Shown here one piece after another: positions 4,099 through 56,110 of a stretch of 64,000 nucleotides of DNA (position 1 is the stretch's first letter; each line of letters opens with the position of its first letter). Where the stretch lies: contig JAAILG010000567.1 of NCBI GenBank assembly GCA_012026655.1, forward strand, positions 1-64,000, written 5' to 3'. The stretch is from Hydrolagus affinis (lineage: Eukaryota). Position numbers and translations under genes: made by a program. The notes under the pieces were generated by a model that made no database searches, was not told the origin of the DNA, and saw only the letters and a list, made by a program, of their open reading frames with translations.

Positions 4099-4285
4099 CT
4101 TTCACATTCTTGGTATAGTCACACATCATTAAAGACACTACATGTAATGCCAACCACTTTACAATATATTCTATGAAGCAATTTTAGATGTCTCAACATT
4201 GGATATCAAATGCAAGGAGTACTATTAACCAGAATTGAAGCCCAATTATATCTTGAGACATTTTTTCTAGTGCTTATCAACTCAC

Positions 4286-5715
4286 CCAGTTTTAGCAAAA
4301 TTTGTCCAATATGACATAATTTGTTGGTTCAGCACATGTTCTTCCTCTCCTATAAGTGGTCCTGCAAATATTGGTATCCCAAATACAAATGTAAGCTCAT
4401 CACCGTGCCCTGCTCCGATCCACTCAGGCAACACAGATGCATTAGGTCGCCTGGTAAAATAATATACATAAACTTTGCTGGCTTTGGTTATAAAGTCACT
4501 TGTCATAACCAATGGTGCAACAAAGCCGACATCACCAACCGCATCCAGTGTTTGCCTCTGGATGTGGAATGAGCTGTAATTCAGGTCCATCCAATCTCTG
4601 TATTGCCATAATATAGCATCAGACACAGTCTTCATTTTCTCTGTCTCTGCTTGAAGAAACAACATTATGTAATTAGCAAAATCAGCTTGCGATTTGATCT
4701 CCTTTATCCATGGCCAGAAAGTACTTCCTTCATGACTATTGACCCCTGCCATATAGGAGAACCGTCCCACTAAGCTTATATTTTCAAAGAGTTCTAGTGG
4801 TGGTTTGGGAAGAAATGATCCATCTATTGTTGGTACAAATGTAAAGTTAAAGTTTGTCAGTTGAATGGCACCCTCAATGAGCTCCAGAGTTCTTTTTCTT
4901 TGTAGGCAACTGATGAGCTTTAGGCTATCACCAACTGGGCAAGATACAATGGAGGCAAGTTTTTCCACCCAGGGGAGAGGATTGTCCAACTGTGTTGCCC
5001 AGGGTGTGATAGGTACCCCACTATCTAAAATTGCTCGTTTAAAAAGCCCCGAGCTGAGTGGTGATAGACATTGTAATCCAACACTCGCACCTCCTGAAGA
5101 CTGTCCAAATATTGTGATAGCATTTGGATTGCCACCAAAGTTCCTGATATTGGCTTTTACCCACAGAATTGCAAATTGTTGGTCAAGAAGTCCACTGTTG
5201 CCGACTGCAGCACTATCCCCTGTGGAAAGAAAGCCAAGCACTCCTAATCTATAATTGATGGTCACGACAACAACTTGCCCAAAGTCAGCCAGAACGTGAG
5301 CCTTATAGTTTCCAGAACCAAGGACAAAGGCTCCTCCATGGATCCATACCATTACAGAGAATAATTCACTGGTAACATCTGGAATTCTCTCTTTATGGGG
5401 AACATAGATATTCAGCCGAAGACAGTCTTCGTTGCCATACAACTGACCAGAAGATAGAAGTTGTTGAGGACATATTGGACCAAATTTGATTGTATCAAGA
5501 GGCTTCTTCCATCCAGGGTGTGGTTGGGGAGGTTGGAATCGAAGGGATTTCATGGGAGGTGCAGCATATGGTATTCCAAGATAGCATTCCACACCTTTGT
5601 TGTCCCATTGCTCCAATTTCCCCCTAACCAAGCCCAGTGTTGTTTGTCTAGTGAAGTTACTGGACACTGGCAATATATAAAAGCCACAAAGAAGAATGAA
5701 AATTCCACAACTCAT
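4286..5715 (-). CDS. Large first coding exon of a secreted type-B carboxylesterase/cholinesterase-family (alpha/beta hydrolase) enzyme
   Basis: 477-aa ORF with Kozak gccacgATG and a hydrophobic signal peptide. Family motifs: GIPYAAPP, EDCLRLNIY, oxyanion HGGAF, NYRLG, nucleophile GQSSGG, acid NSHEG, His GHGDEL. It ends WTNFAKTG at a GG|GTGAG donor (GT at 4285-4284). Confidence 0.95.
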
Positions 5716-6473
5716 CGTGGCAAAATCCAGTAGACAAATCCCCTCAGAGCATTTGCTGTCCGTTAAAAGGTTTTACCAGTGTTACTTTTCCTTATCAGTT
5801 GAAACTTTAATCTTTGGTCTCATCCATGTGGACTTAAATTGTTTTATAATATACTTTAGAGATTAGATAAGCTTTTGTTTTTTAAAATAAATTCACAATT
5901 GAATCATAAAAATACATAACTTATGTTTTGAACTTTACAAACCTCGTGGTATTTTTTTCCATTGTACTTTTTTTATTGATTGCTATGAAGCATAAAATAA
6001 TTGGTAAAGAAAGAATGTTATAGGTTGAATCAATCATACAATCTGTGCAGAATCTGTGTCTATATATGTGGACACTTCAGTTTTTAAAACTTGTATTTTA
6101 TGATCACAAACCACAGTGACTGCACTTTACAGTTCTGTACTGTATATCCTTTGACCTGCTTTGGGATGTCCTTTTGAAGTGAATGTTGCTATGCCAAATG
6201 TAAAGATTACTGTTATTATCATCACTCAGTTATTGATGTTCAACATTATATCTGAATCCATTAGAGATCACAGGAGAAATTCAAATACTGATGACCCTGA
6301 GAGCCATTTGATCTCATCCTTTCAGAATAACCTAAAATTTTGTTGGTTCCAAGCATTGAAAACACATCAAGGATAGTCTAATTTTCTTCCCATTTACTCA
6401 CCTCTCCTGAAGGAGTTATGGTACAATGCTATACAAATGCATTGGTCCCTCATGTATCCTCCCTCATAATTAA

Positions 6474-7933: not shown

Positions 7934-8246
7934 ATAATAATAATCCTTGCATTTGATTTAGTGCTTTTCACGTCTTCTAGACAACTTAAAGCACTTCATA
8001 GAGTATAGTGTAAAGTGAACTCACTGTATATTTGTGGGCGAAATGCGGCAGCCAATTGCGCACAGCAATGTCCCACAAACAGTCGTGGATTGAAATGATC
8101 AATTAAAAAATTTTTTTTAGAGGAGTTATTATTAAGCATGTGGCGTAAGGAAACTTGAGCAAGGTTTCGCCCTGACCTGCCTGGATTAGAACACAGGTCT
8201 CATGCTTGTAAGACGAGTGCTCTAATCACTGAGCTACAGGACTCTA
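7934..8246 (-). mobile_element. Young tRNA-derived SINE, short form, full length
   Basis: A box (tagctcagtg.ttag) and B-box-like gttc.aatcc head, aagtttccttac core, L2-like tail ending aaatgcaaggattattatta. Confidence 0.9.
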
Positions 8247-8645: not shown

Positions 8646-8778
8646 TTAAAACAAAAACAAAAGTTGCTGGAGAAACACAGCAGGTCAAACAGCATCCATG
8701 GAGAAAGGAAAAAGAGTCAACGTTTCGGGTCTGTTGTTGTTTCAGATTCCCAGCATCTGTAGTATTTTGTGTTTTGTT
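8646..8778 (-). mobile_element. Penelope-like terminal repeat copy, ribozyme core truncated, with an inverted segment
   Basis: gctggagaaacacagcaggtcaaacagcatccatggagaaaggaaaaagagtcaacgtttcgggtc matches the 39658 copy. Imperfect flanking duplication ttagag(aa)tttaaaac. Confidence 0.6.
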
Positions 8779-28192: not shown

Positions 28193-28507
28193 AATAATAA
28201 TCCTTGCATTTGATATAGCACTTTTCACATCTTCTGGACGTCTCAAAGTGCTTCACAGAATATACTGTAAAGTGAATTGACTGTATATTTGTGGGAGCAA
28301 CGTGGCAGCCAATTGCGCACAGCAGTGTCCCACAAACAGTTGTGGATTGAAGTGACCAATTCTATTATTGCGTTTTTGTTAAGGGATTATTATTCGGCAC
28401 GTGGAGTAAGGAAACTTGCCCACGGTTTTGCCCTGACCTGCCTGAATTTGAACACAGGTCTCACGCTTTTAAGGCGAGTGCTCTAACCACTGAGCTACAG
28501 GACTCTA
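28193..28507 (-). mobile_element. Young tRNA-derived SINE, short form, full length
   Basis: High similarity to the 7934, 38888, 46705 and 55803 copies. Confidence 0.9.
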
Positions 28508-34079: not shown

Positions 34080-34168
34080 AATAGAGGAAAAAGAGATATC
34101 GCTAGGAACACTCAGCAAGTCAGGCAGCATCTATGGAGAAAGGAAAAGTGAGTCAATGTTTTGGGCTT
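34080..34168 (-). mobile_element. Penelope-like terminal repeat fragment
   Basis: ggaacactcagcaagtcaggcagcatctatggagaaaggaaaagtgagtcaatgttttggg. Confidence 0.6.
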
Positions 34169-34447: not shown

Positions 34448-34677
34448 CAGCTCAGTGGTTAGAGCACTCACCTTACAAGTGGGAGACCTGAGTTCAATTC
34501 CAGGCAAGGCAAAAGCTTGGGCAAGTTTCCTTACTCCACACGCCTAATAATAATCCCTCGAAAATAAATTGGTCATTTCAATCCACGACTGTTTGTGGGA
34601 CACTGCTGAGCACACTTGATTGCTGCGTTTCGCATAAATATATACAGTCAATTCACTTTACAGCATATTATGTGAAG
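34448..34677 (+). mobile_element. Young SINE, 3-prime truncated
   Basis: agctcagtggttagagcactcaccttacaag head plus core and body. Confidence 0.85.
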
Positions 34678-38887: not shown

Positions 38888-39190
38888 TTAATCCTTGCAT
38901 TTGATATAGTGTTTTTCACATTTTATCAACGTCTCAAAGCGCTTCACAGAATATACTGTAAAGTGAATTGACTGCGAAACGCGGCAGCCAATTGCGCACA
39001 GCAGTGCCCCACAAACAGTCGTGGATTGAAATGACAATTTTATTATTGTGTTTTTTTTGGAAGGGATTATTATTATTAGGCGTGTGGAGTAAGGAAACGC
39101 CCAAAGTTTTGCTCTGACTTGCCTGGATTCGAACACAGGTCTCAGGCTTGTAAGGCGAGCGCTCTAATCACTGAGCCTCAGGAGCTCCAC
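38888..39190 (-). mobile_element. Young tRNA-derived SINE, short form, full length
   Basis: Same head, core and tail; B box gtgttcgaatcc intact; many CpGs retained. Confidence 0.9.
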
Positions 39191-39657
39191 CTGTAGTATT
39201 CACCTACAGTTATGTAGGTGAATACTATACAATGTCTTGTTCATTTCAATAGCAGCCGTGGAGACCATAGAAAGGAAATTCTGAAATATCCAGAACTTTC
39301 ATTTCATTAATCAACAGTATAGCAGTGCAACATGGAAAAAAATAACAATCCATAATGTGAAATTTGTGAAAAATATGCAAGACATTTCAAAGCAGTGCTG
39401 GGGACCTGCCGTATTGCTGGAGGTGCAGTCCTTCGGATGTTCAGGTGTGTGTGAAAGATCTCATGGCACCGTTCAAGAAGAGAAGAGAATTTCTTCTGGT
39501 GTCCTGGCCAACAATCCCCCAGATAAGGTTGGTCATTCACTTCACACTGTTTGTGGGATGTGGTTGTGTGCAACTTTGCTGACACATTCTACCACAAAAC
39601 ACACAGTCATTACAATGTGTAGTATGTACTGTACTGCAAAACACTTTGGATTGTCTG

Positions 39658-39764
39658 AAACAAAAACAGAATTCGCTGGGAACACTCAGCAGGTCAAGCA
39701 GCATCTATGGAGAAAGGAAAAATGAGTCAACGTTTCGGGTCCACGACCCTTCGTCAGAACTGAC
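39658..39764 (-). mobile_element. 107-bp Penelope-like terminal-repeat insertion with 12-bp TSD, inside a Deu-SINE tail
   Basis: Flanks are ttggattgtctg (39646-39657) and ttggaatgtctg (39765-39776). The same family recurs at 8646, 34080 and 47938. Confidence 0.7.
39725..39761 (-). ncRNA. Minimal hammerhead ribozyme variant (Penelope-like-element type)
   Basis: Minus strand reads AGUU-CUGACGA-A-GGGUC(gug)GACCC-GAAA-CG-UU-GACU. Both core boxes are present, with a 5-bp stem II, stem I AGUU/GACU, and palindromic AACGUU in place of stem III. Confidence 0.65.
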
Positions 39765-39964
39765 TTGGAATGTCTGCCTGATGTGAAAGGTGCTACACCA
39801 AATCCATGGAATATCATTAAGATCTCCTGATAAATATGAATACCAATTACCCAATGCAAAATATTATGTATCTTCTCAACTGTTCATCTTTGCTTAGGTT
39901 ATTCAGTTATGTTATCGCTGTTGATAGAACTTTGTGTTTCATGTTATGAGCAAGTATGATTGAG

Positions 39965-46704: not shown

Positions 46705-47028
46705 TAATAATAATAATCTTTGCATTTGATATAGAGCTTTTCATGATTTCTAGATGTCTCAAAGCGCTTCACAGAATATACTGTAAAGTGAATTGATTGT
46801 ATATTTGTAGGTGAAACACGGCAGCCAATTGCGCACAGCAGTGTCCCACAAACAGTCGTGGATTGAAATGGCCAATTTATTGTAAGTTTTTGTTTTTTGG
46901 ACTGATTATTATTAGGCATGTGGAGTAAGGATACTTATCTAAGGTTTTGCCCTGACCTACCTGGATTCGAAACACAGATCTCACGCTTCTAAGGCAATTG
47001 CTCCAACCACTGAGCTATAGGATTCCAC
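46705..47028 (-). mobile_element. Young SINE nested antisense within another copy (host 46648-46704 plus 47029-47125, + strand)
   Basis: The host tail resumes exactly after the insert; ccacatat is duplicated at the junctions. Confidence 0.85.
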
Positions 47029-47815: not shown

Positions 47816-47937
47816 TTGTTCTCAAAATTACAACCATTCCAGTCCTGGGACGTCATCTGCTTATGTCATGGGATTACAAACGTCCAGTCCCTGAATCACA
47901 CTTTCCCCCAAAGGTTGAACACTACAAAAACGCAGTG

Positions 47938-48023
47938 TTAACAAAGGGTCATGTACCCGAAATGTTGACTCACTTTCCTTGCTCCATACCTGCTGTGTGT
48001 TCCCAATGATTTCTGTTTTTATT
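47938..48023 (+). mobile_element. Penelope-like terminal repeat with CpG-decayed ribozyme core
   Basis: ttaacaaagggtcatgtacccgaaatgttgactc aligns to ctgacgaagggtcgtggacccgaaacgttgactc. Confidence 0.6.
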
Positions 48024-50481
48024 ACAAAAACACATAAATTTTCTGCTCAGCACATCTAGATTCACAGCACATGGTTGTGTTCTTTCAATTAGCTGCTAAT
48101 TCAGGCCATTAAAATGTGTGACAAAATCATTACAAGAGATAAATGCGCATTGCCTGTTAATTCCGAATAGTATGCCAAGTGGAATGAACACACAGATCAC
48201 AAGAGATGTTAACAAAACAACTCATGTTATTGAAGCCTATTTAATTGAAACATTGAAGAATGACTGGAATATCACCCTCTAGTCCGTAATGACATTTGTA
48301 GTATTTGTTCATGTTTCTTGCTGTTGGCAGAACAAGCGATCAACTTCTCCCTATGGGGCATCTTCACACATCTGCCACCGCAGTGCAGACCACCCTCTTC
48401 AGAGATTTGGAAGCTCCATTGCCAGGACAAGTGAGCACAATTGTGAAATAACTGTACGTTGGAGTTTAGTCGTCGCTGTCAGACTTGTTAAATTCATCTC
48501 ACAATCTGAAAAGCCTGAATCCCATAGAACCAGCAGAGCTGCTCCTAACTAAGATAACTCTGCAACACCCTTGCAATATCAACACAACATAAAGACTTCA
48601 GTCGCTACCACACTTAGCAAAATCACCACGTGAAATGCCTGATTTTCATTCAAGTAGCTATATTTTTTCAGCAAAGTGTTTTATGTTGCACAGAATGATA
48701 ACATTAAACAGACCAGGGATAATTGGAAGGTTCAATTTTCTTTTGATAATACAGCTCCGATTCAGCTTTATTCCCACCCGTGTTACATTATGTATTTTAC
48801 TTGCGCTCTGCACAGGACATCTTACCGGGCAGAGAACTTCGAGTGAAATGCCATACTTGGAGAATTTATGTATGGTAGGATGATCAGGCAGAGGCCTGCT
48901 GGAACTTCGTGTGAATGAAAAGCAGTTCTGTTAATTGAAGAAACGATGGAATGTGCAGACCTCCAGTAATTGAATGTAATTGAAGACAGCAGCCTGTTTA
49001 AGAGAGAATGGTTCTCACAGCAAGGCATATATACTAACTGCATGCCAGTCATCGTCCCCTGGTCAACCACAAAGTGATTGGACTGACAAAGCCTAGAGGC
49101 AGTGCTGAGGAGGGCTGCTCAGGTTTGAGAGAGAATGTCTCATTGTACCTTTTAGAGATGTATAACACTTTAAATATGATTTTAAACAAGGTACTTGCCC
49201 AACATTTCACCCAGCCCGGGTATTGAACCCTGGTCCTCCTGTTTGTGAGGTGAGTACTCTGACCAATTTGTTACAGGACTCCACACTTCAGATTAGCAGA
49301 ACTCTTTTGTGATTCTTAACAGACATCAGAGGAAAAATATTGCATCCTTTCTGTGTAGGGCTCACTTTCAACTTGTGTTCAGCAGGCAGTAGCACTGTAC
49401 TACTGAATAGATCCCCAAATGTACTCGGGCACATGATTCTGAAATTCCCATACAAGACATAGTCACTGCACTTGCCAGTAAAATTCTGTGAAACGCTTTG
49501 AGACATCTTTCCTGGAAGAAGGACACAATATCAAGCACAAGGTTATTGTTTTATTACAGATATTCCAATTCAGTTTTCCATGAATGTAATTTATTTTTAT
49601 TGCAAGAATTTGTGTGAGCTGCAAACAAAACAAATTATAAACACGTCAAACTTTGTGCTATAAAGCTATGAAGTCAATGGAAAAACTCGTTTGAAAACTG
49701 AAAGATGATTAAATGCTGATTTTTTTAAAAAAAGAGTAACATAGAATAAAAAGCTTAACACACGCTGTATATTAAAACAAAATATGCATTTCCATTTTTT
49801 ACCTAATTATAAATCTCTGTTTCACATTATTATAGAGAAAACAATTTAATACTTAGCAACTCAACCATGTACGATTTAAATGATACATAACTACTGTTTC
49901 CCAAAGACCGTTATTAGTTAAGAAACTGGAACTAAAGACTTTAATTAAAATGGTAATATTGGCTCCCATGACATATTTAAAATTCATTTTCTCTCCAAAC
50001 ATTGTACTAGTATAGTAATTAGGAAGCAGCTTAGCGAACGTGGTGATTCAGAGAGACGTTATAATTTAAAAGTTGAGTCCGTGAAGTAAATTGCTATTCT
50101 AACTTGGTGCGGATTTGTCTCACACAATCCACAATGTGTCTTTGGTGCAAAATGCATCTTAGTTGAAAGATTTAAGCCATAATTTGAGACTCAAGAAAGT
50201 AAAATGAAAATCAACATTCCAATCAACACAGACGTTGCCTGTTTTAAAAAGATGACATTTTGATAAAAGGGGCTGCATGTAGTGAAGAATCTATGCGTAA
50301 TCTATCTGAAGGCTGTTTGGTTGAAATTTAACTTCTGTGGTAGGCATTTATTGTGGTGAATGTAGAAAGTGCCCAAGACAGATACAACTGTGAGAATCAG
50401 GTGATATGTTATTTCTTAACCTCCACTCTTGGTTTTTCAGTGGCATATGATTTTTCTGTTCTGCCACTAAAGCGGGATGTA

Positions 50482-55802: not shown

Positions 55803-56110
55803 GTGGTCCTTCAGCTCAGTGGTTAGAGCATTTGCCTTGCAAGCGAGAGATCTGGGTTCAATTCCAGGCAGGGTGAAACCTTGGGCAAGTTTCCTTACTC
55901 CACAAGCCTGATAATAATCTCTTGAAAAAATTTAATAAATTGATTATTTCAATCCACGACTGTTTGTGGGACGCTGCTGTACACAATTGGCTGCCGCATT
56001 TCACCCACCAAATATACAATCAATTAATTTTGCAGTATAATCTGTAAAGCTCTTTGAGACGTGTAGAAGCTGTGAAAACGCTATATTAAATGCAAGGATT
56101 ATTATTACTA
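55803..56110 (+). mobile_element. Young SINE, full length, inserted into a Deu-domain SINE
   Basis: Interrupts the Deu motif gatcctatggca|..ttgaa; the host continues to about 56335. Confidence 0.85.

What the first reader, a model, noticed from the sequence alone, without database searches (positions are those of the whole stretch)
39658..39764. Intact minimal hammerhead ribozyme in a 107-bp TSD-flanked mini-retroelement
Seen: the minus strand folds as stem I AGUU/GACU, core CUGACGA plus an extra A, stem II GGGUC/GACCC and GAAA, with palindromic AACGUU replacing stem III. The insert has a 12-bp TSD with one mismatch and begins right at the ribozyme. Three more copies (8646, 34080, 47938) are truncated or CpG-decayed in the same motif. 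Known: Penelope-like elements carry minimal hammerheads that cleave as dimers via a palindromic stem III. Inference: this is a short non-autonomous ribozyme-bearing unit mobilised by a Penelope element.
Basis: partly seen in the sequence, partly recalled or inferred. Interest (0 to 1): 0.7.

Follow-up and report, generated by a model that had tools for sequence, protein, structure and literature searches.

The report
Penelope retrotransposon stub with minimal hammerhead
The 107-base insert is a short stub of an abundant, protein-coding jumping gene of a known type (Penelope-like), carrying that element's usual minimal ribozyme motif; it is not a separate mobile family, and it was likely copied from the uncut front end of the element's RNA.

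Summary
The motif, the 12-bp TSD and the three other window copies are real. The insert is 97% identical to the hammerhead-bearing end repeat (pLTR) of a Neptune-type Penelope-like element (PLE) in this genome, and longer copies link the same unit to GIY-YIG and RT coding sequence. Short and long copies share one consensus, so there is no separate non-autonomous family. In 90 copies picked by an internal motif, 3' ends fall at two sites about 32 nt apart (the PLE 'tail'), 44 have an adjacent inverted copy, and none has a tandem hammerhead partner. 5' ends pile up at the start of stem I (49 of 90), not at the predicted cleavage site (1 of 90). An excess G precedes that start (88 of 200 vs 25% expected), which suggests copying to a capped RNA end. 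'Intact' means only little decayed: 227 identical motifs exist, and core CpGs decay like other CpGs. Cleavage was not tested. Minimal hammerheads in PLEs and scattered single motifs are published, and this scan has noted the same stubs and the cap idea in other genomes. Low interest.

The parts
39658..39764 (-). PLE stub: hammerhead plus 5' leader of subfamily A, ending at the first (tail-less) 3' end site; 39763-39764 are two extra bases or part of a longer TSD
   Evidence: 106 of 109 bases match the subfamily A consensus, 89.9% to subfamily B; end distribution
39725..39761 (-). Minimal type I hammerhead motif: stem I 4 bp, core, extra A, stem II 5 bp, GAAA, ACGU palindrome, U17; predicted cut between 39729 and 39728
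   Evidence: Sequence; descriptor scan; folding; numbering inferred from the hammerhead consensus
39757..39763 (-). Likely transcription start region: the A at 39761 lies in an initiator-like context in the parent element (consensus recalled)
   Evidence: 5' ends of 49 of 90 copies fall here; G excess before this A
39646..39657 (.). Target-site duplication, left copy; its last four bases also match the element (3' microhomology)
39765..39776 (.). Target-site duplication, right copy (1 mismatch)
39541..39820 (+). Older SINE copy interrupted by the insert (approximate limits)
   Evidence: Empty-site alignment; repeat families D5 and D11
8649..8775 (.). Subfamily B stub lacking the first core half (8649-8731, minus strand), joined head-to-head to an inverted tail piece (8732-8775, plus strand)
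34088..34165 (-). Subfamily A stub starting inside stem II; no CUGANGA
47933..48026 (+). Decayed stub starting at the usual 5' site; broken core and a 12-nt deletion

Best explanation
The insert is a stub of an endonuclease-bearing, Neptune-type Penelope-like retrotransposon, made of the element's minimal hammerhead and the leader behind it, and it was likely written in by the element's own RT and endonuclease from the uncut 5' end of the element's RNA. Shown: sequence identity with the pLTR end of ORF-bearing copies, the TSD, two 3' end sites, adjacent inversions and the 5' pile-up. Inferred: the GIY-YIG domain nicks the target; RT starts internally about 100 or about 132 nt past the core; it runs to the RNA's 5' end at the start of stem I, often adding a G opposite the cap; repair leaves a 10-15-bp TSD. 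The ribozyme is a passenger. It probably needs a second copy or the protein to cut, and stubs decay neutrally.
For: 26 of 30 loci holding the endonuclease 3' end carry the unit about 440 nt downstream on the same strand (one is the query locus). GIY-YIG passes the Pfam cut-off in 1 of 5 peptides, with a second just under. RVT_1 hits 2 of 4 peptides, one above cut-off. An RT Y(I/V)DD motif lies upstream of an A-type unit in 8 of 30 loci. A CX4CxxC linker is present, which marks Neptune per PMC8557442. 3' ends: 44 of 90 at +91..+107, 44 at +117..+140, 0 between. Inversions: 44 of 90. TSD in 9 of 45 simple copies vs 0.7% null. 5' ends: 49 of 90 at -7..+2, 1 of 90 at +28..+30. G before the start A: 47 of 100 (A) and 41 of 100 (B) vs 25%. 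L171 shows the leader running on into the ORF. In the anole PLE, RT starts internally at two sites that define the tail, and uncut RNA is the dominant template (PMC11167929).
Against: No transcription start was mapped: one search found no pile-up of read ends, in libraries that cannot show one. The window copy has the parental C, not the extra G. Among the 30 loci examined with flanks, only 9 had G. The G could be a one-base fold-back on stem I. 36 of 45 simple copies show no TSD at the threshold used.
Confidence: 0.75

Rival explanations
1. A separate non-autonomous SINE-like or retrozyme family: short units are transcribed on their own and mobilised in trans by a PLE.
For: Short copies outnumber long ones (only 15 of 90 extend 10 nt or more upstream) and have defined ends. 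A stub keeps the presumed start site, so it could be re-copied. PLE pLTR sequences can act in trans (PMC3846280), and animal retrozymes are proposed to derive from pLTRs (bioRxiv 10.64898/2026.07.22.740005).
Against: No diagnostic changes separate short from long copies, and their divergence is similar. 0 of 90 loci have a same-strand second hammerhead within 600 nt. Each PLE subfamily (A, B) has matching stubs.
Confidence: 0.12
2. Stubs are ordinary 5' truncations: RT stalls or folds back at the hammerhead hairpin, and the pile-up has nothing to do with a transcription start or cap.
For: Stem II is stable (pair probability 0.82). Head-to-head inversions are common (44 of 90), and some join through stem I complementarity (L006). 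Self-priming has been proposed for PLE inversions (PMC3846280).
Against: RT meets stem II first, yet ends pile up beyond it: 49 at -7..+2, 6 at +3..+12, 1 at -17..-8. Fold-back predicts A before the extra G in subfamily B, but the counts are T 31, A 7, C 3 of 41 (hand count).
Confidence: 0.1
3. Ribozyme self-cleavage sets the ends of the unit.
For: The motif matches the min-HHR description, and PLE hammerheads cleave weakly as dimers (PMC4209133) or with the protein (PMC11167929). 6 of 90 5' ends lie at +24..+33.
Against: Cleavage after U17 would remove the core from the downstream RNA, yet most copies keep it. Only 1 of 90 starts at +28..+30.
Confidence: 0.03

Closest known systems
Minimal hammerheads (min-HHR) in pLTRs of metazoan PLEs (Cervera and de la Pena 2014, PMC4209133; parts 1-2 of 4 read)
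   Same: Type I, short helix I, extra base between positions 9 and 10.1, G10.1-C11.1, palindromic 15.2-16.2; mostly single scattered motifs that the paper ties to truncated PLEs; reported in fish Xena, Poseidon and Neptune.
   Different: Helix II is 5 bp here (4 canonical, 7-8 in Schistosoma); the triplet is GUU; this genome's family was not seen in the text read (supplements not read).
Poseidon element of Anolis carolinensis, PAc (Frangieh et al. 2024, PMC11167929; parts 1-2 of 4 read)
   Same: Hammerhead near the pLTR-ORF junction; two internal RT start sites defining a 30-40-nt tail; uncut RNA as template.
   Different: This family has the CX4CxxC linker (Neptune type). Its 3' ends lie in T-rich leader, not an AC-rich stem-loop, and the long ORF starts further downstream in L171. 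The 5' pile-up and extra G are not in the text read.
Neptune-clade EN+ PLEs (Craig et al. 2021, PMC8557442; passages read)
   Same: RT, CX2-5CxxC linker, C-terminal GIY-YIG; pLTR with HHR; adjacent inverted 5'-truncated copy; 30-40-bp tail.
   Different: Clade not tested by a tree; Nematis also carries a linker motif.
Non-LTR retrozymes (bioRxiv 10.64898/2026.07.22.740005; part 1 of 5 and passages read)
   Same: Type I HHR, pLTR-related, non-coding, many monomers.
   Different: Defined there as tandem repeats with an HHR in at least two consecutive units; 0 of 90 loci here have that.

Membership tests
Minimal hammerhead of PLEs | CUGANGA and GAAA boxes around helix II, with a short helix I | tested here: met
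Minimal hammerhead of PLEs | Extra base between 9 and 10.1; G10.1-C11.1; palindromic 15.2-16.2 | tested here: met
   A at 39750; G39749-C39737; ACGU at 39733-39730
Minimal hammerhead of PLEs | Covariation across families | tested here: inconclusive
   A third subfamily has A-U for G-C at 10.1-11.1 and U-A for U-G in stem I; B has U-G for C-G closing stem II. That is one two-sided change, both transitions, and selected for it. The 27 hits were mostly mutated A/B copies, some duplicated, many unpaired.
Minimal hammerhead of PLEs | Self-cleavage as a dimer or with the protein | not testable with these tools
   Folding only: the monomer's best fold buries the core (-11.4 vs -8.8 kcal/mol); ACGU duplex -1.7; the best co-fold does not use it
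EN+ Penelope-like element | RT followed by C-terminal GIY-YIG, then pLTR with HHR | tested here: met
   (in longer copies; the window copy has no ORF)
EN+ Penelope-like element | Optional 30-40-bp tail; adjacent inverted truncated copy; TSD | tested here: met
Neptune clade | CX2-5CxxC linker between RT and EN | tested here: met
   CX4CxxC in L039, L047, L171 and others
Neptune clade | RT tree placement | not tested
   No reference PLE proteins were fetched
Non-LTR retrozyme | Tandem units, at least two consecutive with HHR | tested here: not met
   0 of 90 loci; solo in the window
Separate non-autonomous family | Own consensus, distinct from the autonomous partner | tested here: not met
   One CpG difference between short and long consensus

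The most novel reading that the evidence does not exclude
Most insertions of this PLE are complete cDNAs of the capped, uncut first 105-140 nt of its own mRNA. The genome thus records both the transcription start (the A at the head of stem I) and the two RT start sites, and shows in vivo that the hammerhead does not cut the template used for insertion.
Probability: 0.55. Interest if true: 0.4.

Novelty: new member of a known kind. Interest (0 to 1): 0.2.

Why it matters
The locus itself is ordinary. The family's end statistics bear modestly on an open point, what PLE hammerheads do: they agree with the in vitro result that uncut RNA is the template, and they point to a transcription start that can be tested directly. 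They also explain why vertebrate genomes hold thousands of lone minimal hammerheads without needing a separate mobile RNA.

Tried and rejected
Rfam scan: no hammerhead family at E<=1. Fold z-score 0.0: no support from energy. Pattern search for other stem II pairs: 27 hits vs 4 control, mostly mutated A/B copies, several duplicated loci; rejected as covariation evidence. Two-base fold-back as the source of the extra G: the subfamily B prediction failed. Read-through past the tail into the element body: no hit in 90 loci, tested only with a subfamily B body. Sequencing runs: no RNA holder listed. Three runs laid show a depth step at the stub start on both strands and no pile-up of read ends; they cannot show a start site. 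Sequence look-up in earlier findings: nothing. Lunse et al. 2017 (PMC5785218) is not held; it is known here only through PMC6765202. Selection on this copy: not supported; 227 identical 32-mers exist, and core CpG bases G8 and G12 vary at 25% and 19% vs 27% for all CpG sites.

Full report
Observation. Below, position 0 is C3 at 39757. The TSD is 12 bp with one mismatch. It is real: removing the insert and one copy restores an older SINE, and 67 of 72 hits in a 798,739-base sample of 80 genome stretches bridge the junction. The other three window copies exist. Folding energy (z 0.0) and Rfam add no support. The helix III palindrome is ACGU, and the predicted cut lies after U17 (+28), at the 3' side of the motif.

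What it belongs to. A search of the own genome gave 2,105 candidates, 40 scored, at 93-96% identity for the best. Some extend upstream into a shared pyrimidine-rich stretch and an ORF end. Of 30 loci fetched with that ORF end, 26 carry the unit downstream on the same strand, usually about 440 nt on; 3 have no unit and 1 has it only upstream. The ORF has a CX4CxxC linker and a GIY-YIG domain (Pfam above cut-off in 1 of 5 peptides, one more at E 0.0017). Longer copies hold RT (RVT_1 in 2 of 4 peptides; Atlas best score 0.97 to clusters with RVT_1, HTH_animal and GIY-YIG). L171 runs leader, ORF, RT, EN, pLTR, hammerhead, tail. There are two main subfamilies, A and B, and a rarer variant, C. The window copy matches A at 106 of 109 bases and B at 89.9%; 8 of 30 loci show an RT motif upstream of an A-type unit. 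By the linker this is Neptune type (PMC8557442, passages); no tree was built. The host looks like a cartilaginous fish (recalled resemblance, not tested).

Abundance. An internal 34-mer occurs exactly 1,133 times and the intact 32-nt hammerhead 227 times, with 0 in the reversed controls. The sample held 19 profile hits in 799 kb, roughly 25,000 fragments if scaled; this is rough, since large contigs were sampled.

End statistics. I took 90 loci from the 100 listed of the 1,133 matches (one already held, one second match in a fetched region and the last 8 were left out). 5' ends: 49 at -7..+2, 15 at -10 or further upstream, 26 at +7 or further in; only 1 at +28..+30 and 6 at +24..+33. 3' ends: 44 at +91..+107, 44 at +117..+140, none between, 2 shorter; the reference reached only about +140. 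44 have an inverted copy adjacent upstream. None has a same-strand second hammerhead within 600 nt. Of 46 simple copies, one was dropped for Ns; 9 of 45 have a TSD of score 8 or more, 10-15 bp long, against 0.7% of 450 mismatched pairs (7 of 45 with tighter spacing). The tail, inversions and TSDs are published PLE traits (PMC8557442 and PMC3846280, passages). The window copy is the simple, tail-less class.

Not a separate family. The consensus of 48 short rows and that of 22 ORF-linked rows differ at one CpG position; divergence over 0..+48 is 8.7% and 9.6%.

Ribozyme state. Among 107 rows spanning the motif, 47 keep the core and 16 keep core, stem II and palindrome (these rows include inverted partners). 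CpG sites vary at 27%, core G8 and G12 at 25% and 19%. Non-CpG core bases vary somewhat less than non-core ones, but the non-core set includes sub-lineage and homopolymer sites. The window copy is therefore a little-decayed member. Between subfamilies the core is unchanged, with one two-sided change (10.1-11.1 G-C to A-U in C, also seen unselected in loose ends of two public runs) and two one-sided changes: weak covariation. The monomer's best fold pairs the core with the palindrome. Published min-HHRs are inactive as monomers and weak as dimers (PMC4209133, parts 1-2 of 4; review PMC6765202, passages).

Why the insert starts at the ribozyme. Cleavage would give copies starting at +29 without the core; they are rare. 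In the parent, the A at -4 lies in an initiator-like context (consensus recalled), and D. virilis Penelope has an internal promoter with Inr and DPE (PMC2377424, passages). Among copies starting at that A with a non-parental base before it, the base is G in 47 of the first 100 of 275 (A) and 41 of the first 100 of 124 (B), by hand count, against 25.2% expected (P 1.6e-6 and 3e-4). In one search it was 45 of 100 (overlapping set), but only 9 of its first 30. Untemplated 5' G is taken as a mark of cap copying in LINE-1 and SVA (PMC4859970, passages). A one-base fold-back on stem I would also give G; its two-base prediction fails in B. With internal RT initiation and uncut template shown for the anole element (PMC11167929, parts 1-2 of 4), the simplest model is internal start, run-off at the capped 5' end, insertion of a 105-140-nt stub. 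The start site itself is inferred; could not show it.

Novelty. Lone minimal hammerheads tied to truncated PLEs are in print (PMC4209133). In paper searches I saw no title or abstract start on cap-marked PLE stubs, but most hits were seen only as listings. Supplements were not read; those of PMC4209133 and PMC11167929 (Fig. S2) may already show related motifs or the 5' pile-up. The retrozyme preprint (part 1 of 5 and passages) defines its class by tandems, absent here. I noted the cap idea before seeing that the scan holds 253 word-matched findings in at least 28 genomes, several with the same reading; those notes are not counted as support. Verdict: new member of a known kind; interest 0.2.

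Noticed in passing
window 4282-5772 (-): 496-aa open frame with a near-complete carboxylesterase domain (PF00135, E 6e-134, profile 5-472 of 515). Probably one large exon of a cholinesterase-like gene; a retrocopy is not excluded.
   Followed up: partly
window 8172-8243, 28433-28504, 34449-34503, 39123-39177, 46956-47021, 55813-55867 and repeat families D1-D20: tRNA-like heads and many copies of an abundant SINE; the insert sits in one copy. It resembles the DeuSINE group (recalled, untested).
   Followed up: partly
L171, about 4265-4275 (-): A pyrimidine tract ending in AG lies just before an ATG at the head of the long ORF, a possible 5' intron acceptor as in other PLEs. The first 3' end site also ends in a T-tract plus CAG.
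   Followed up: no
L368-L387: Rarer subfamily C with A-U at the normally G-C 10.1-11.1 pair; 68 pattern matches, some of them mutated A/B copies.
   Followed up: partly
L213, L216, L241, L344, L361: Several extra bases lie between the TSD and the element's 5' start, suggesting untemplated addition by the RT.
   Followed up: partly
L332, L333, L335, L336; L004: Copies whose pLTR appears internally deleted, joining sequence near the ORF end or the leader to the hammerhead region; they could be true non-autonomous derivatives.
   Followed up: no
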